Part shown: piece by piece, positions 3,592-9,472 of the stretch | How the letters are laid out: the number at the start of each line of letters is the position of its first letter | Numbering within the stretch: position 1 is the stretch's first letter | Sequence record: PQ850602.1 | From: Escherichia phage EmilieLinder_Bas103 | Length of the DNA stretch: 40,176 bases | Direction: 5' to 3' (one strand) | Notes under the pieces: model-generated | What the model was told of the DNA's origin: nothing | Seen by the model: only the letters and a program-made list of their open reading frames with translations | The model's database searches: none | Position numbers and translations under genes: made by a program

Positions 3592-3602
3592 ATCTGTTAC
3601 AA

Positions 3603-3732
3603 CCTCCTAAAGTCACCTCCTAAAGTCACCTCCTAAAGTCACCTCCTAAAGTCACCTCCTAAAGTCACCTCCTAAAGTCACCTCCTAAAGTCACCTCCTA
3701 AAGTCACCTCCTAAAGTCACCTCCTAAAGTCA
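3603..3732 (+). repeat. Perfect tandem array: 10 x 13-bp unit CCTCCTAAAGTCA
   Basis: Directly counted 10 identical head-to-tail 13-bp units immediately right of the terminal repeat; T7 has irregular CCTAAAG-containing repeats here. Confidence 0.95.
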
Positions 3733-3893
3733 TTCCTACCGTCTACAGCCTAAAGCCTAAACCTAAAGACCCATCAAGTCAACGCCTATCTTAAAGTATC
3801 CTCTAAAGACCAGCCTAAAGCCTATCCCTAAAGCCTATCCTATAGATGCCCTGTTGTTGCCTATAAAGAGATAATCTTCAATCATTGTCTTTC

Positions 3894-3979: not shown

Positions 3980-4008
3980 TTGACTTAAAGGGTCATAGGG
4001 TTTACTAT
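3980..4008 (+). promoter_or_regulatory. Host sigma70 early promoter A1
   Basis: -35 TTGACT, 17-bp spacer, -10 TACTAT; upstream AAAAAGAGTA A-tract; corresponds to T7 A1. Confidence 0.75.
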
Positions 4009-4105
4009 TCATCTCGTCAACGGGACAACGGCCCAAAGCCACTCCCTGAGATACCGGAGTCAACCGGATAAGTAGGCAGCCTGTAAGCCATACGAAAAAC
4101 AGGCA

Positions 4106-4135
4106 TTGACAACATGCAGTAACATGCAGTAAGAT
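4106..4135 (+). promoter_or_regulatory. Host sigma70 early promoter A2
   Basis: -35 TTGACA, 18-bp spacer, -10 TAAGAT; corresponds to T7 A2. Confidence 0.7.
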
Positions 4136-4213
4136 ACACAGCGTCAATCGGTAGCACACGGTGTCTTCTAGGTGACTTAAGCGCACCACGGCACATAAGG
4201 TGAAACAAAATGG

Positions 4214-4242
4214 TTGACAACATGAAGTAAACACGGTACGAT
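4214..4242 (+). promoter_or_regulatory. Host sigma70 early promoter A3
   Basis: -35 TTGACA, 17-bp spacer, -10 TACGAT; corresponds to T7 A3. Confidence 0.75.
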
Positions 4243-4424: not shown

Positions 4425-4772
4425 ATGGCTATGTCTAACATGACTTACAAAAACGTTTTCGGCCACGCTTACGAAATGCTGAAAGAAAACATCCGTTATG
4501 ATGACATCCGCGACACTGATGACCTGCACGATGCTATTCACATGGCTGCCGATAGCGCCGTTCCGCACTACTACAGCGACATTTTCAGCGTAATGGCAAG
4601 TGAAGGCATTGACCTTGAGTTCGAAGACTCTGGTCTTATGCCGGACACCAAGGACGTGACCCGCATTCTACAGGCTCGCATCTATGAGCAACTCACACTC
4701 GACCTCTGGGAAGACGCTGAGGACTTACTGAACGAGTACCTTGAGGAAGTCGAGGAAGAGGAAGAAGAGTAA
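4425..4772 (+). CDS. 0.3: Ocr, DNA-mimic anti-restriction protein (gp0.3)
   Basis: 115-aa highly acidic [25 protein letters not shown]..., near-identical to T7 Ocr; first early gene after A1-A3. Confidence 0.95.
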
Positions 4773-4924
4773 TGACTAATAGCACGCAATACGGTCTGAC
4801 CGCTCAAACTGTGCTGTTCTATAGTGACATGGTGCGCTGCGGGTTTGATTGGTCGCTCGCAATGGCACACCTTAAGGAACTGTACGAAAACAACAAGGCA
4901 ATAGCTTTGGAATCTGCTGAGTGA
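4772..4924 (+). CDS. 0.4: gp0.4-like small early protein (T7 gp0.4 is reported to inhibit FtsZ)
   Basis: 50-aa [35 protein letters not shown]..., start overlaps 0.3 stop (TAATG); matches T7 gp0.4; absent from ORF track (<60 aa). Confidence 0.8.
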   Translation: MTNSTQYGLTAQTVLFYSDMVRCGFDWSLAMAHLKELYENNKAIALESAE

Positions 4925-4967
4925 TAGACTAAAGGTCGCTCCTAGCGAGTGGCCTTTATGATTATCA
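4921..4967 (+). promoter_or_regulatory. RNase III hairpin R0.5, copy 1 of a 47-bp direct repeat
   Basis: GTGATAGACTAAAGGTCGCTCCTAGCGAGTGGCCTTTATGATTATCA; stem GTCGCTC/GAGTGGC; repeated at 5227-5273. Confidence 0.6.
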
Positions 4968-4992
4968 CTTAACTTGCAATAGGACTAACATC

Positions 4993-5193
4993 ATGAGTAA
5001 ACTTCTGGCAACCTCTAAAATCAAAGGCCAATGCACTGTAACACTGCGCGAGTATGAGCACGGGGCAATGGGGAGCACCTATGTTGTTCGGTACGGTAAA
5101 CAGGTCACGCATTGGGTAAACCTTGTTTTGGCGCAAGAAGAGTATCAAGCCTGTGTGATACACCAAGCAACATGTGCAGGCTGGAATGATTGA
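4993..5193 (+). CDS. Hypothetical early protein (66 aa), cassette ORF between duplicated RNase III sites
   Basis: ORF with RBS (agga) 8 nt upstream; Cys-containing soluble protein MSKLLATSKIKGQCTV...; no resemblance to T7 proteins I can recall. Confidence 0.6.
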   Translation: MSKLLATSKIKGQCTVTLREYEHGAMGSTYVVRYGKQVTHWVNLVLAQEEYQACVIHQATCAGWND

Positions 5194-5226
5194 CACGCAC
5201 TGGACAATAGACTTCGAGTCTACCCA

Positions 5227-5273
5227 GTGATAAACTCAAGGTCGCTCCTAGCGAGTGGCCTTTATGATTATCA
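5227..5273 (+). promoter_or_regulatory. RNase III hairpin R0.5, copy 2 of the 47-bp direct repeat
   Basis: GTGATAAACTCAAGGTCGCTCCTAGCGAGTGGCCTTTATGATTATCA; 45/47 identical to copy at 4921-4967, 306 bp downstream of it. Confidence 0.6.
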
Positions 5274-5292
5274 TTCTATGAGGATTAAACGC

Positions 5293-5463
5293 ATGACGAC
5301 TGGAATCTTTATGGCAACCGTTGCAGTATTCGTAGCGATGGGATGGCGTAGCACCGCGTTGGAGCGCTCAAAGTTCCTTAAGCAACGTGATGCACTACTA
5401 GAGAAGTTTGACTCTGAGGGGCGCGGTCAGGAAGCTCTGGAGGCAATAAAGTGCTATCGCTAA
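5293..5463 (+). CDS. Hypothetical small membrane protein (56 aa), positional analog of T7 gene 0.5
   Basis: ATG with RBS gagga; one predicted TM helix (GIFMATVAVFVAMGW) then charged tail; sequence unlike T7 gp0.5 from memory. Confidence 0.55.
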   Translation: MTTGIFMATVAVFVAMGWRSTALERSKFLKQRDALLEKFDSEGRGQEALEAIKCYR

Positions 5464-5648
5464 TTATCATCACTGGTTACGCTCTAATCCTATACGTGTT
5501 CCTTAGAGACTTCCGCAAGGGTATAAAGGTTCACAAAGCAACGCTAAGTTACTTTAAATACGGATTCCTACCACGGTTTACGGTACGTGAACACAACGGG
5601 CGCTTTAAGGCGAACAAAGTAGGCATCTTTTACGTAGCAACTCATTAA
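5451..5648 (+). CDS. Hypothetical small membrane protein (65 aa), positional analog of T7 gene 0.6
   Basis: GTG start 6 nt after GGAGG, overlapping the previous ORF end; N-terminal TM segment [17 protein letters not shown] then basic tail. Confidence 0.45.
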
Positions 5649-5670
5649 TCACACTTGGAGAATACATAAA

Positions 5671-6750
5671 GTGAACATCACCGACATCATGAACGCTATC
5701 GACGCAATCAAAGCACTGCCAATCTGTGAACTTGACAAGCGCCAAGGTATGCTCATCGACTTACTGGTAGAGATGGTCAACAGCGAAACATGCGATGGAG
5801 AGCTAACCGAACTGAATCAGGCACTTGAGTTTCAAGACTGGTGGACTACCTTGAAGTGTCTCACGGCTGACGCAGGGTTCAAGATGCTCGGTAATGGTCA
5901 CTTCTCGGCTGCTTATAGCCACCCGCTGCTGCCTAACAGAGTGATTAAGGTGGGCTTTAAGAAAGAGGATTCAGGCGCAGCATACACCGCATTCTGCCGC
6001 ATGTATCAGGGCCGTGCCGGTATCCCTAACGTCTACGATGTACAGCGTCACGCTGGATGCTATACGGTTGTACTCGATGCACTGAATGATTGTGAGCGTT
6101 TCAACAATGATGAACATTATAAATACGCTGAGATTGCAAGCGACATCATTGACTACAAATCAGATGAGCACGATGAGCTAACTGGGTGGGATGGCGAGTT
6201 CGTTGAGACTTGCAAGCTAATCCGCAAGTTCTTTGAGGGTATCGCTTCGTTCGACATGCACAGTGGGAACATCATGTTCGATGATAATGATGTACCATAC
6301 ATTACCGACCCTGTATCGTTCTCACAGAAGAAAGACGGTGGCTCGTTCAGTATTGACCCTGAGGAACTCATCAAGGAAGTCGAGGAGGTCGCACGTCAGA
6401 AGGAAATTGACCGCGCTAAGGAACGTAAAGCACGTCATGTGGGTCGATTGGAGGCACGCAGATTCAAACGTCGCAACCGCAAGGCACGTAAAGTACACCA
6501 AGCGAAGCACAAGCGAATGGTCGCTGCGTGGCGAATGGCTGAACGTCAAGAACGACGTAACCATGAGAGAGCTGTAGATGTACTAGGAAGAACCGATAAC
6601 GCTATGCTCTGGGTCAACATGTTCGCTGGGGACTTTAAGGCGCTTGAGGAACGAATCGCAGCGCACTGGTGTAAAGCTGACCGAATGGCTATCGCTAATG
6701 GTCTTCCGCTTAACATCGACAAGAAACTTGACGCAATGCTAATGGGCTGA
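5671..6750 (+). CDS. 0.7: Ser/Thr protein kinase / host transcription shutoff protein (gp0.7)
   Basis: 359-aa ORF, GTG start; near-identical to T7 gp0.7 including the basic C-terminal region. Confidence 0.95.
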
Positions 6751-6820: not shown

Positions 6821-9472
6821 ATGAACACGATTAACATCGCTAAGAACGACTTCTCTGACATCGAACTGGCTGCTATCCCGTTCAACACTCTGGCTGACCA
6901 TTACGGTGAGCGTTTAGCTCGCGAACAGTTGGCCCTTGAGCATGAGTCTTATGAAATGGGTGAAGCACGCTTCCGCAAGATGTTTGAGCGTCAACTTAAA
7001 GCGGGTGAGGTTGCGGATAACGCTGCCGCTAAGCCTCTCATTACTACTCTGCTCCCCAAGATGATTGCACGCATCAACGATTGGTTTGAGGAAGTGAAAG
7101 CTAAGCGCGGTAAGCGCCCGACAGCCTTCCAGTTCCTGCAAGAAATCAAGCCGGAAGCGATAGCGTACATCACCATTAAGACAACTCTGGCTTGCCTAAC
7201 GAGCGTAGACAATACAACCGTTCAGGCTGTAGCAAGTGCAATCGGTCGAGCTATTGAGGACGAGGCGCGCTTTGGTCGAATCCGTGACCTTGAAGCTAAG
7301 CACTTCAAGAAAAACGTTGAGGAACAACTTAACAAGCGCGTAGGGCACGTCTACAAGAAAGCATTCATGCAGGTTGTAGAAGCGGATATGCTCTCTAAGG
7401 GTCTACTTGGTGGCGAGGCGTGGTCTTCGTGGCATAAGGAAGACTCCATTCACGTTGGTGTGCGCTGCATTGAGATGCTCATTGAGTCCACCGGAATGGT
7501 TAACTTACATCGTCAAAATGCTGGCGTAGTAGGGCAAGACTCGGAGACTATCGAACTTGCACCGGAATACGCTGAGGCTATCGCAACCCGTGCAGGTGCG
7601 CTTGCTGGTATCTCTCCGATGTTCCAGCCTTGCGTAGTTCCTCCTAAACCGTGGACTGGTATTACTGGTGGTGGATATTGGGCTAACGGTCGTCGTCCTC
7701 TGGCACTGGTGCGTACTCACAGCAGGAAAGCACTGATGCGCTACGAAGACGTTTACATGCCTGAGGTGTACAAGGCGATTAACATTGCGCAAAACACCGC
7801 ATGGAAAATCAACAAGAAAGTCCTAGCGGTAGCCAACGTAATCACCAAGTGGAAGCATTGCCCTATAGAGGACATCCCAGCGATTGAACGTGAAGAACTC
7901 CCGATGAAACCGGAAGACATCGACACGAATCCTGAGGCTCTCGCTGCATGGAAACGTGCTGCTGCTGCTGTGTACCGCAAGGACAAGGCTCGCAAGTCTC
8001 GCCGTATCAGCTTAGAGTTCATGCTTGAGCAAGCCAACAAGTTCGCTAACCATAAGGCCATCTGGTTCCCTTACAACATGGACTGGCGCGGTCGCGTTTA
8101 CGCTGTGTCAATGTTCAACCCGCAAGGTAACGACATGACCAAAGGACTGCTGACGCTGGCTAAAGGAAAACCAATCGGCAAGGAAGGTTATTACTGGCTG
8201 AAAATCCACGGTGCAAACTGTGCTGGTGTCGATAAGGTTCCGTTCCCTGAGCGCATCAAGTTCATTGAGGACAACCATGAGAACATCATGGCTTGCGCTA
8301 AGTCTCCACTGGAGAACACTTGGTGGGCTGAGCAAGATTCTCCGTTCTGCTTCCTCGCGTTCTGCTTTGAGTACGCTGGGGTACAGCACCACGGCTTAAG
8401 CTACAACTGCTCTCTTCCGCTGGCGTTCGATGGGTCTTGCTCTGGCATTCAGCACTTCTCCGCTATGCTCCGAGATGAGGTTGGTGGTCGCGCTGTTAAC
8501 CTTCTGCCTAGCGAAACCGTTCAGGACATCTACGGGATTGTCGCTAAGAAAGTCAATTTGATTCTGCAAGAAGACGTAATCAACGGAACCGACAACGAAG
8601 TAGTTACCGTGACTGATGAGAACACTGGTGAAATCTCTGAGAAAGTCAAGCTGGGCACTAAGGCGCTGGCTGGTCAGTGGTTGGCTTACGGTGTAACACG
8701 TAGCGTGACTAAACGTTCAGTAATGACTCTGGCTTACGGGTCCAAAGAGTTCGGCTTCCGTCAACAAGTGCTGGAGGACACCATTCAGCCAGCAATTGAT
8801 TCCGGTAAGGGTCTGATGTTCACGCAACCGAATCAGGCTGCTGGATACATGGCGAAACTGATTTGGGAAGCTGTTAGCGTTACGGTGGTAGCCGCTGTGG
8901 AGGCAATGAACTGGCTCAAGTCCGCTGCTAAGCTGCTGGCTGCTGAGGTCAAAGATAAGAAGACTGGAGAGATTCTTCGCAAGCGTTGCGCTGTACATTG
9001 GGTAACTCCTGATGGGTTCCCAGTGTGGCAGGAATACAAGAAGCCAATTCAGACTCGCTTGAACCTGATTTTCCTCGGTCAGTTCCGCTTACAGCCAACC
9101 ATTAACACTAACAAGGATAGCGAGATTGATGCACACAAACAGGAGTCCGGTATTGCTCCTAACTTTGTACACAGCCAAGACGGTAGTCACCTGCGTAAGA
9201 CTGTAGTGTGGGCGCATGAGAAGTACGGCATCGAGTCTTTTGCATTGATTCACGACTCCTTCGGGACCATTCCGGCTGACGCTGCTAACCTGTTCAAAGC
9301 TGTTCGCGAAACTATGGTGGACACCTATGAGTCTTGTGATGTACTGGCTGACTTCTATGACCAGTTCGCTGACCAGTTGCATGAGTCTCAACTTGACAAA
9401 ATGCCAGCACTTCCGGCTAAAGGTAACTTGAACCTCCAAGACATCCTTAAGTCAGACTTCGCGTTTGCGTAA
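6821..9472 (+). CDS. 1: T7-type single-subunit DNA-dependent RNA polymerase (gp1)
   Basis: 883-aa ORF, about 98 percent identical to T7 RNAP from memory; specificity-loop ...QPNQAAGYM... (Asn as in T7), consistent with the T7-type promoters in this window. Confidence 0.98.
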   Translation: MNTINIAKNDFSDIELAAIPFNTLADHYGERLAREQLALEHESYEMGEARFRKMFERQLKAGEVADNAAAKPLITTLLPKMIARINDWFEEVKAKRGKRPTAFQFLQEIKPEAIAYITIKTTLACLTSVDNTTVQAVASAIGRAIEDEARFGRIRDLEAKHFKKNVEEQLNKRVGHVYKKAFMQVVEADMLSKGLLGGEAWSSWHKEDSIHVGVRCIEMLIESTGMVNLHRQNAGVVGQDSETIELAPEYAEAIATRAGALAGISPMFQPCVVPPKPWTGITGGGYWANGRRPLALVRTHSRKALMRYEDVYMPEVYKAINIAQNTAWKINKKVLAVANVITKWKHCPIEDIPAIEREELPMKPEDIDTNPEALAAWKRAAAAVYRKDKARKSRRISLEFMLEQANKFANHKAIWFPYNMDWRGRVYAVSMFNPQGNDMTKGLLTLAKGKPIGKEGYYWLKIHGANCAGVDKVPFPERIKFIEDNHENIMACAKSPLENTWWAEQDSPFCFLAFCFEYAGVQHHGLSYNCSLPLAFDGSCSGIQHFSAMLRDEVGGRAVNLLPSETVQDIYGIVAKKVNLILQEDVINGTDNEVVTVTDENTGEISEKVKLGTKALAGQWLAYGVTRSVTKRSVMTLAYGSKEFGFRQQVLEDTIQPAIDSGKGLMFTQPNQAAGYMAKLIWEAVSVTVVAAVEAMNWLKSAAKLLAAEVKDKKTGEILRKRCAVHWVTPDGFPVWQEYKKPIQTRLNLIFLGQFRLQPTINTNKDSEIDAHKQESGIAPNFVHSQDGSHLRKTVVWAHEKYGIESFALIHDSFGTIPADAANLFKAVRETMVDTYESCDVLADFYDQFADQLHESQLDKMPALPAKGNLNLQDILKSDFAFA

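What the first reader, a model, noticed from the sequence alone, without database searches (positions are those of the whole stretch)
4921..5273. Early-gene cassette: unknown 66-aa ORF bracketed by a 47-bp direct repeat of the R0.5 RNase III hairpin
Two copies of the R0.5-type hairpin (4921-4967 and 5227-5273, 45/47 identical) sit 306 bp apart, and the only content between them is an RBS-preceded 66-aa ORF (MSKLLATSKIKGQCTV...CAGWND) that I do not recognise from T7. Duplicated processing sites flanking one gene suggest acquisition or duplication by recombination at the conserved hairpin. The gene would be transcribed by host RNAP from A1-A3 among the host-takeover genes (ocr, 0.4, 0.7), which makes it a candidate for an uncharacterised anti-defence or host-shutoff factor.
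Basis: partly seen in the sequence, partly recalled or inferred. Interest (0 to 1): 0.7.

Follow-up and report, generated by a model that had tools for sequence, protein, structure and literature searches.

The report
Hairpin-flanked early gene 0.45 cassette
A small T7-like phage early gene (gene 0.45, catalogued since about 2001 but of unknown function) sits between two copies of an RNA-processing hairpin, and its closest relatives lack exactly this 306-bp unit, so the hairpins probably also serve as the sites where the gene is swapped in and out.

Summary
Two R0.5-type hairpins (4921-4967 and 5227-5273) are 45/47 identical and 306 bp apart. Their 36-nt core is exact, and the repeat extends to 69 nt, into the 3' end of gene 0.4.

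The 66-aa ORF is not an unknown gene. It is gene 0.45 of the phiYeO3-12/phiSG-JL2 lineage (phrog_6500). It occurs in 163 GenBank phage records, is under strong purifying selection (dN/dS about 0.08) and has no known function. Those records annotate the upstream hairpin as RNase III site R0.45.

About 20 GenBank records share the hairpin-0.45-hairpin layout. Most carriers have only the upstream hairpin.

The two closest genomes (98% identical) both lack the 306-bp unit. Each has a single hairpin that is a different chimera of the window's two copies. The 3' end of the second hairpin is also a mosaic junction. Recombination between hairpins therefore gains and loses the cassette, much like PeSL cassettes in T4-like phages.

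Each hairpin should also act as an RNase III site, which would release a roughly 306-nt mRNA carrying only gene 0.45. This step is inferred.

An anti-defence role is untested and has no supporting similarity. This is an ordinary member of a known kind, with a modestly interesting evolutionary mechanism.

The parts
3980..4242 (+). Three sigma-70 promoter-like sites (A1-A3 equivalents at 3980-4008, 4106-4135 and 4214-4242). Host RNA polymerase starting here would transcribe the cassette.
   Evidence: There is no T7-type promoter between 3912 and 9481.
4772..4924 (+). Gene 0.4 (50 aa). Its last 22 nt and its stop codon (4922-4924) lie inside repeat copy 1.
   Evidence: phrog_7202. 100% amino-acid identity to the JeanTinguely and Bas104 0.4 genes.
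4899..4967 (+). Direct repeat copy 1 (69 nt): the 3' end of gene 0.4 plus hairpin HP1.
   Evidence: family D2. The 22-nt extension is significant.
4921..4967 (+). HP1, an R0.5/R0.45-type RNase III processing hairpin. It matches T7 R0.5 at 46 of 47 positions. The predicted cut is after 4959.
   Evidence: The cut position is inferred from the T7 R0.5 cleavage site, which I recall from memory.
4981..4984 (+). Shine-Dalgarno AGGA, 8 nt upstream of the ATG of gene 0.45.
   Evidence: The motif ATAGGACTAAC is conserved upstream of 0.45 in all carriers and is listed as the SD in PMC4925675.
4993..5193 (+). Gene 0.45 (66 aa, 7.4 kDa, pI 7.8), a conserved early protein of unknown function. Predicted fold: four beta strands then a C-terminal helix carrying C54-x2-H57-x3-C61-A-G.
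5198..5229 (+). Small hairpin in the tail after the 0.45 stop (CACUGG...CCAGUG, -12.8 kcal/mol). It overlaps the 5' arm of HP2's lower stem. Its role is unknown.
5205..5273 (+). Direct repeat copy 2 (69 nt): a non-coding remnant resembling the 3' end of gene 0.4, plus hairpin HP2.
5227..5273 (+). HP2, the second R0.5-type hairpin, with the GATAAAC signature typical of hairpins that follow 0.45. The predicted cut is after 5265. Its 3' end is the mosaic junction with the downstream T3-type genes.
5293..5463 (+). Downstream small early gene (56 aa, in the 0.5 position, phrog_25811). It is the first gene of the mRNA that starts at HP2.
   Evidence: 99-99.5% nucleotide identity to JeanTinguely and Bas104.

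Best explanation
The region is a modular early-gene cassette of T7-like phages (subfamily Studiervirinae). It holds gene 0.45, a conserved 66-aa class I protein of unknown function, between two copies of the R0.5/R0.45-type RNase III processing hairpin.

At the RNA level (inferred): host RNA polymerase starting at A1-A3 reads through the region, and RNase III cuts on the 3' side of each hairpin's internal loop. HP1 ends the ocr-0.4 mRNA and starts the 0.45 mRNA. HP2 ends the 0.45 mRNA, leaving a protective 3' stem-loop, and starts the mRNA for the 0.5-position gene through 0.7. Its 5' end would be the same as in phages that lack the cassette. Gene 0.45 would therefore be expressed from its own mRNA of about 306 nt without disturbing its neighbours.

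At the DNA level (shown by comparison): the hairpins are 36-69 bp of portable homology, and phage recombination uses them to add, remove and re-join cassettes. HP2's 3' end is the junction between a Yanou-like 0.45 module and a JeanTinguely-type downstream module. The nearest relatives carry one chimeric hairpin where the window has hairpin-gene-hairpin. JeanTinguely's hairpin bears the signature of hairpins that follow 0.45, which marks it as a deletion scar.

The protein most likely binds a host or nucleic-acid target through a conserved C-terminal helix motif (CxxHxxxCAG). This last point is speculative.
For: Identity of the gene:
- tblastn finds 163 phage records. Cedecea phage Yanou matches at 100%, and 'gp0.45' of phiSG-JL2 at 91%.
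- phrog_6500 matches at E 2e-44.
- phiYeO3-12 and phiSG-JL2 annotate gene 0.45 and RNase III site R0.45.
- Median dN/dS is 0.084. Variable columns by codon position are 19, 14 and 55.

The hairpins:
- HP1 matches T7 R0.5 at 46/47 and HP2 at 45/47.
- Across 25 distinct hairpins, 97.9% of cells are paired and 6 pairs show compensatory changes. None of 500 shuffles reached this.

Recombination:
- JeanTinguely and Bas104 are 98.1% identical to the window over 25 kb, and both lack exactly the unit.
- JeanTinguely's single hairpin is the 0.4 flank plus the copy-2 variants (GATAAACTCAAGG).
- Bas104's single hairpin is the copy-1 variants (GATAGACTAAAGG) plus the copy-2 3' flank (ATCATTCTATGAGG). These are two different crossover points.
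- The unit's interior is 97.6% identical to Yanou, while the flanks are 99-100% identical to JeanTinguely and Bas104.
- The window's downstream module (5274-5670) otherwise occurs only in phages without 0.45. Every other phage with 0.45 followed by a second hairpin continues into a T7-type gene 0.5.
- Hairpins directly after gene 0.4 have G at position 7 in 19 of 21 cases. Hairpins after 0.45 have A in 11 of 12 cases (Fisher p = 4e-6). JeanTinguely is one of the two exceptions.
- EG1 has three hairpins bracketing two different genes, and Yanou has an extra ORF in the same slot.
Against: - RNase III cleavage of either copy was not tested. It is inferred from near-identity to T7 R0.5.
- HP1's A4931 variant closes part of the internal loop (-27.3 against -19.8 kcal/mol), so the two copies may not be cut the same way.
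- The direction of the change (gain in the window, or loss in its relatives) is not fully resolved. All five 0.45-less phages that share the downstream module could reflect an ancestral absence.
- The remnant of the 0.4 3' end in front of HP2 is not explained by simple crossover within the hairpin. It needs an older duplication or an illegitimate join.
- Most 0.45 carriers have only one hairpin, so the second copy is not needed for expression.
- Nothing is known about what the protein does.
Confidence: 0.75

Rival explanations
1. Recent one-way acquisition. A Bas104-like ancestor with a single hairpin gained the unit once, either by double crossover within the hairpins or by integration of a 306-bp hairpin-0.45 circle from a Yanou-like donor. 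No losses are involved, and JeanTinguely's hairpin is just a variant.
For: All five database phages that share the window's downstream module lack 0.45. The unit's interior is 97.6% identical to Yanou and only 84-94% identical to other carriers. HP1 keeps the A4931 variant otherwise seen only in Bas104, and HP2 keeps the recipient-type 3' flank.
Against: JeanTinguely shares the window's ocr allele (99.4%), whereas Bas104's ocr is 88.5% identical. JeanTinguely also carries the post-0.45 hairpin signature directly after gene 0.4, which is rare (2 of 21). That fits a deletion from a window-like genome. A gain and a loss can both have happened.
Confidence: 0.35
2. One reading: gp0.45 is an anti-defence or host-shutoff factor acting alongside ocr, 0.4 and 0.7.
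For: It lies among the class I host-takeover genes. It is present in some phages and absent in close relatives, as accessory genes are. It is under strong purifying selection. Small proteins with the same fold occur in many unrelated phages.
Confidence: 0.3
3. The second hairpin is a neutral by-product of a duplication, or an assembly artefact, with no role in RNA processing or recombination.
For: Most 0.45 carriers manage with a single upstream hairpin.
Against: About 20 independent GenBank records share the hairpin-0.45-hairpin layout. The second copy keeps full pairing and a characteristic signature across them. The flanks of the two copies differ, so an assembly collapse or expansion is unlikely. 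Chimeric single hairpins in sister genomes show that the copies do recombine.
Confidence: 0.07
4. The hairpins act mainly as transcription terminators or attenuators, as PeSL stem-loops do, rather than as RNase III sites.
For: They are stable GC-rich stems in intergenic positions.
Against: No T-run follows the stems on the + strand, and the terminator scan found none there. The sequence is nearly identical to T7 R0.5, an established RNase III site (established knowledge; annotated as such in T3, phiYeO3-12 and phiSG-JL2). The essential RNA polymerase gene lies downstream and must be transcribed from A1-A3.
Confidence: 0.05

Closest known systems
Gene 0.45 and RNase III site R0.45 of Yersinia phage phiYeO3-12 (AJ251805) and Salmonella phage phiSG-JL2 (EU547803)
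   Same: The protein is homologous over its full length (86-91% amino-acid identity, 66 aa). It has the same conserved leader (ATAGGACTAAC...ATG) immediately 3' of an R0.5-type hairpin, and the same position in the class I early region.
   Different: In those T3-like phages the gene follows the SAM hydrolase gene and runs straight into gene 0.6, with no second hairpin. Here it follows ocr-0.4 and is closed by a second hairpin plus a remnant of the 3' end of gene 0.4.
T7 RNase III site R0.5, between genes 0.4 and 0.5
   Same: HP1 matches at 46/47 and HP2 at 45/47. The hairpin overlaps the 0.4 stop codon in the same way. It has the same two-helix structure with an internal loop.
   Different: T7 has one copy and no gene 0.45. 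The window has two copies, and HP1 carries a C-to-A change (4931) that extends the upper stem.
PeSL (promoter-early stem-loop) cassettes of T4-like phages RB49 and phi1 (Arbiol et al. 2010, PMC2839356; PMC4122927)
   Same: A small accessory ORF is flanked by two copies of a conserved regulatory element in one phage. A nearly identical phage has a single chimeric element in its place. The element both supplies expression signals and provides homology for excision and insertion.
   Different: PeSLs are sigma-70 promoter plus terminator units of about 100 bp. Here the element is a 47-69-nt RNA-processing hairpin with no promoter or terminator, in a podovirus with a single polycistronic early transcript. 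Mini-circles have not been looked for.
Hairpin-0.45-hairpin arrangement in other Teseptimavirus genomes (ESh3, vB_YpYeO9, CICC 80001, HZ2R8, Pila, 3A_8767, KKE5P, EG1, Yanou)
   Same: The order is the same: 0.4, hairpin (GATAG..), 0.45, hairpin (GATAAAC).
   Different: In all of them the second hairpin is followed by a T7-type gene 0.5. The window joins it to the T3-type 0.5/0.6 module of the JeanTinguely group, a combination not found among 50,697 phage records.

Membership tests
Gene 0.45 family (phiYeO3-12/phiSG-JL2 gp0.45; phrog_6500) | Full-length sequence homology to the named gp0.45 proteins | tested here: met
   phrog_6500 E 2.4e-44 over residues 1-66. 91% identity to phiSG-JL2 gp0.45 and 86% to phiYeO3-12.
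Gene 0.45 family (phiYeO3-12/phiSG-JL2 gp0.45; phrog_6500) | Located in the class I early region, directly downstream of an R0.5/R0.45-type hairpin with the conserved leader | tested here: met
Gene 0.45 family (phiYeO3-12/phiSG-JL2 gp0.45; phrog_6500) | A real protein-coding gene under purifying selection | tested here: met
   Median dN/dS 0.084 over 176 pairs. Third-position variation dominates.
T7-group RNase III processing sites (R0.5 type) | Sequence near-identity to an experimentally established site (T7 R0.5) | tested here: met
   46/47 for HP1 and 45/47 for HP2.
T7-group RNase III processing sites (R0.5 type) | Conserved two-helix hairpin with an internal loop, supported by covariation | tested here: met
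   97.9% of cells paired, 6 pairs with compensatory changes, 0 of 500 shuffles as high. Slid controls gave 24-50% paired. Folds.
T7-group RNase III processing sites (R0.5 type) | Cleavage by host RNase III in vivo or in vitro | not testable with these tools
   Needs RNA mapping in rnc+ and rnc- hosts.
PeSL mobile regulatory cassettes (T4-like phages) | An accessory ORF flanked by two copies of a conserved regulatory element, with a single chimeric element in a near-identical genome | tested here: met
   The window compared with JeanTinguely and Bas104. PeSL definition read.
PeSL mobile regulatory cassettes (T4-like phages) | The element contains a sigma-70 early promoter | tested here: not met
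   No promoter-like site within or next to either hairpin.
PeSL mobile regulatory cassettes (T4-like phages) | The element's stem-loop acts as a terminator or attenuator | tested here: not met
   No T-run and no terminator-like site on the + strand. The element is an RNase III-type hairpin.
PeSL mobile regulatory cassettes (T4-like phages) | Excised mini-circles detectable in lysates | not testable with these tools
   Needs outward-facing PCR or deep sequencing.
Characterised phage anti-defence or host-takeover proteins | Sequence or fold similarity to a characterised member | tested here: not met

The most novel reading that the evidence does not exclude
In T7-like phages, the conserved R0.5-type RNase III hairpins double as recombination linkers for a pool of self-contained early-gene cassettes. 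Examples are 0.45, the 94-aa gene of EG1 and ORF3 of Yanou. Each cassette arrives with its own processing site, so it becomes a separate stable mRNA. This would be an RNA-processing counterpart of the PeSL system of T4-like phages. It may move through 300-bp circles or short double crossovers, and it would explain the gene-by-gene mosaicism of the early (host-takeover and anti-defence) region. Separately, gp0.45 would be the founding member of a wide family of phage-only 60-70-aa proteins with a conserved CxxHxxxCAG helix, possibly binding a metal and acting on a host target.
Probability: 0.45. Interest if true: 0.5.

Novelty: new member of a known kind. Interest (0 to 1): 0.3.

Why it matters
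The early region of T7-like phages holds their host-takeover and anti-defence genes and varies gene by gene between close relatives. If the RNase III hairpins are the joints at which these genes are exchanged, that would explain how such phages re-assort counter-defence genes without disrupting early mRNA processing. It would also give phage engineers a natural 'plug-in' site. Gene 0.45 is widespread, strongly conserved and entirely uncharacterised. Near-isogenic natural pairs (the window phage against BASEL phages Bas64 and Bas104) differ at this locus by exactly this gene, though not genome-wide (98.1% identity), which offers a convenient starting point for finding its function.

Tried and rejected
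- Function of gp0.45: Pfam, NCBIfam and PADLOC scans gave no hits. A profile search of PDB sequences gave a best E of 1.3. Foldseek against PDB found nothing below E 0.39.
- The afdb50 fold library was unavailable.
- The two long proteins in the HMM search, a cadherin-like repeat protein and a Listeria-Bacteroides repeat protein, are repeat artefacts that match only a beta-hairpin segment.
- Genomic context of the distant homologues P0020 and P0022 was uninformative.
- Literature: 'gp0.45' appears only in annotation tables. The Silas et al. accessory-gene screen does not contain the sequence, and its ocr-linked orf24 is a different protein. I found no paper describing RNase III sites as recombination linkers.
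- Pierce, Kong and Masker 1991 (direct-repeat deletion in T7) and Kiljunen et al. 2005 (nonessential genes of phiYeO3-12) are cited elsewhere but are not held, so I could not read them.
- The IMG/VR scan for the hairpin core added few new Teseptimavirus early regions.
- My first hairpin regex missed copies with indels or divergent loops and had to be redone (then).
- The minus-strand ORFs that overlap 0.45 (75 aa and 37 aa) are rejected because the codon-position pattern fits the + frame.

Full report
**Observation**

The window is a circularly permuted genome of a T7-like phage. Its early region runs from three sigma-70 promoters (3980, 4106, 4214) through these genes:
- ocr (4425-4772)
- gene 0.4 (4772-4924)
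- the feature in question
- two small genes (5293-5463 and 5451-5648)
- the 0.7 kinase (5671-6750)
- the RNA polymerase (6821-9472)

No T7-type promoter lies between 3912 and 9481.

- The 36-nt core is exact, and none of 100 shuffles matched it.
- The repeat is in fact 69 nt long (87% identical). Its 5' extension in copy 1 is the end of gene 0.4. The matching stretch before copy 2 is non-coding and agrees at 15 of 22 positions. Of 40,111 other 22-mers in the window, only that stretch itself scores as high.
- Both copies fold strongly as RNA (-27.3 and -19.8 kcal/mol).

**What the ORF is**

The 66-aa ORF (4993-5193) is not an unknown gene.
- tblastn finds it in 163 phage records, mostly at 80-100% identity.
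- It is phrog_6500, 'unknown function' (E 2e-44).
- Yersinia phage phiYeO3-12 and Salmonella phage phiSG-JL2 name it gene 0.45. Both records annotate the hairpin in front of it as 'putative RNase III site R0.45'.
- T3 itself lacks it: SAM hydrolase, then R0.5, then gene 0.6.
- It is a real gene. Median dN/dS is 0.084, and variable columns by codon position number 19, 14 and 55.

A search of 1.84 billion cluster representatives found about 30 distant clusters. Nearly all are 60-90-aa proteins. Family-wide, Y34, G35, A47 and C61 are invariant, H57 is nearly invariant, and C54 is usually conserved. Together these give a CxxHxxxCAG motif on the C-terminal helix.

AlphaFold predicts four beta strands followed by a helix (pLDDT 86). 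The fold recurs in uncharacterised proteins of about 60 aa from many unrelated phages (TM 0.75-0.85). It matches nothing characterised in the PDB beyond generic hits. Its function remains unknown.

**What the hairpins are**

HP1 differs from T7 R0.5 by one base and HP2 by two. Across 25 distinct hairpins from related phages:
- 97.9% of cells are paired.
- Six pairs show compensatory changes.
- No shuffle or slid control comes close.

They are members of the T7-group family of RNase III sites. Cleavage itself could not be tested.

From the T7 R0.5 cleavage position, which I recall from memory (nt 1468, base 39 of the hairpin), the cuts would fall after 4959 and 5265. That would release a 306-nt mRNA carrying only gene 0.45, ending in a 3' stem-loop. 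The upstream and downstream mRNAs would keep the same ends they have in phages without the cassette. This step is inference.

**How common the arrangement is**

In Teseptimavirus genomes that carry 0.45, the order is 0.4, hairpin, 0.45, hairpin. It is seen in ESh3, vB_YpYeO9, CICC 80001, HZ2R8, Pila, 3A_8767, KKE5P and an IMG/VR contig.
- Yanou has an extra 68-aa ORF in the slot.
- EG1 has three hairpins bracketing a 94-aa gene and 0.45.

A blastn search with the whole unit suggests about 20 GenBank records have both hairpins. Most of the 163 carriers, typically T3-like and Klebsiella phages, have only the upstream one.

**Evidence for recombination at the hairpins**

1. The two nearest genomes, AnnaIndermaur_Bas104 and JeanTinguely (Bas64), are 98.1% identical to the window over 25 kb. 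Both lack exactly the 306-bp unit.
2. Their single hairpins are different chimeras of the window's two copies.
   - JeanTinguely has the gene 0.4 flank followed by the copy-2 variants (GATAAACTCAAGG).
   - Bas104 has the copy-1 variants (GATAGACTAAAGG) followed by copy 2's 3' flank (ATCATTCTATGAGG).
   - So one crossover lies in AGTGATA and the other in the 36-nt core.
3. Hairpins directly after gene 0.4 carry G at position 7 in 19 of 21 distinct cases. Hairpins after 0.45 carry A in 11 of 12 (Fisher p = 4e-6). JeanTinguely is one of the two exceptions, as expected if its hairpin is the scar of a deletion.
4. The unit's interior is 97.6% identical to Yanou. The flanks are 99-100% identical to JeanTinguely and Bas104.
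5. The window's downstream module (5274-5670) is otherwise found only in phages without 0.45. Every other second hairpin is followed by a T7-type gene 0.5. The 3' end of HP2 is therefore itself a mosaic junction. No record among 50,697 has the window's combination.

I conclude that hairpin-to-hairpin homologous recombination has both built this arrangement and removed it in a sister lineage. Whether the window gained the unit recently or inherited it is not settled. I give the pure-gain model about 0.35.

T7 is known to delete efficiently between short direct repeats (Pierce, Kong and Masker 1991, seen only as a citation; the details are from my own knowledge).

**Comparison with what is known**

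The gene and its upstream site are already catalogued, so the specific 'unknown ORF' claim fails.

The mechanism closely parallels the PeSL cassettes of T4-like phages. There an ORFan flanked by two elements in RB49 is replaced by one chimeric element in phi1, with excision and insertion possibly passing through mini-circles (PMC2839356). It is not a PeSL, because the element has no promoter and no terminator. It is an RNA-processing site in a polycistronic early transcript.

I found no paper describing T7-group RNase III sites as recombination linkers. The library lacks most of the older T7 literature, so I cannot claim that nobody has described this.

**What remains unexplained**

- The 0.4-like remnant in front of HP2 is not produced by a simple crossover inside the hairpin. 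EG1 has an analogous remnant of its 94-aa gene in front of its third hairpin. Both point to an older duplication or an illegitimate join.
- A small hairpin in the tail (5198-5229) overlaps HP2's lower stem.

**Verdict**

The gene is a known but uncharacterised conserved early gene. The cassette idea is supported by comparative evidence. The anti-defence idea is untested. Interest is modest: the finding is an ordinary member of a known kind. It also exposes a tidy mechanism that may not have been described, and it identifies convenient natural near-isogenic phage pairs for testing gp0.45.

Noticed in passing
window 3602-3732: A perfect tandem array of 10.1 copies of the 13-nt unit ACCTCCTAAAGTC, with further CCTAAAG-type repeats at 3784-3842. 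It lies between the end of the late region and promoter phiOL (3894), where T7 has its short CCTAAAG repeat arrays next to the terminal repeat. Copy number was not compared with relatives.
   Followed up: partly
window 4931 (HP1) against 5237 (HP2): HP1 has A where T7 R0.5 and HP2 have C. This extends the upper stem and shrinks the internal loop (-27.3 against -19.8 kcal/mol). In this survey only Bas104 shares the variant. In T7 sites the internal loop determines single-strand cleavage (from my own knowledge), so the two copies may be processed differently.
   Followed up: partly
window 5198-5229: A small hairpin (CACUGG..UAGACU-ucg-AGUCUA.CCAGUG, -12.8 kcal/mol) lies right after the 0.45 stop. 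Its 3' arm overlaps the 5' arm of HP2's lower stem, so the two structures compete. The outer CACTGG/CCAGTG arms recur in CICC 80001 and HZ2R8, and the inner CTGG/CCAG part also in ESh3 and vB_YpYeO9.
   Followed up: partly
L016 (Escherichia phage EG1) 1585-2280; L002 (Cedecea phage Yanou) 1405-1979: EG1 has three R0.5-type hairpins bracketing a 94-aa gene and then 0.45. The stretch before its third hairpin repeats the 3' end of the 94-aa gene (GATTTGCAATACTAG against GATTTGTAATACTAG). Yanou has an extra 68-aa ORF (phrog_16587) between the first hairpin and 0.45. This suggests an extensible array of hairpin-linked cassettes.
   Followed up: partly
window 4425-4772 against 4772-5670: The early region is mosaic gene by gene. 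The ocr allele is 99.4% identical to JeanTinguely but only 88.5% to Bas104, while gene 0.4 and the genes after HP2 are 99-100% identical to both.
   Followed up: partly
window 4993-5190 (protein); P0020-P0048: gp0.45 belongs to a wider family of 60-90-aa proteins, from phages where the source is known (the BFVD matches and one phage-like contig; most HMM hits carry no source information). The family shares a YG turn and a C-terminal CxxHxxxCAG[WFY] motif, with C61 invariant and H57 at 90% or more. The three residues are spaced so that they would fall on one face of the helix (inferred from the i, i+3, i+7 spacing), which suggests a metal or ligand site.
   Followed up: partly
hits H69 and H179 (MT350293, 'Enterococcus phage EFA-2'): A record labelled as an Enterococcus faecalis phage carries a typical enterobacterial T7-like early region, with hairpin-0.45-hairpin at 88% nucleotide identity. 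The host label looks doubtful.
   Followed up: no
window 5293-5648: The two small genes after HP2 (56 aa, phrog_25811; 65 aa, phrog_2385) resemble the T3-type 0.6/0.65 alleles (76-82% nucleotide identity over parts of the region to T3-like phages) rather than T7 genes 0.5/0.6, even though the phage uses T7-consensus promoters.
   Followed up: no
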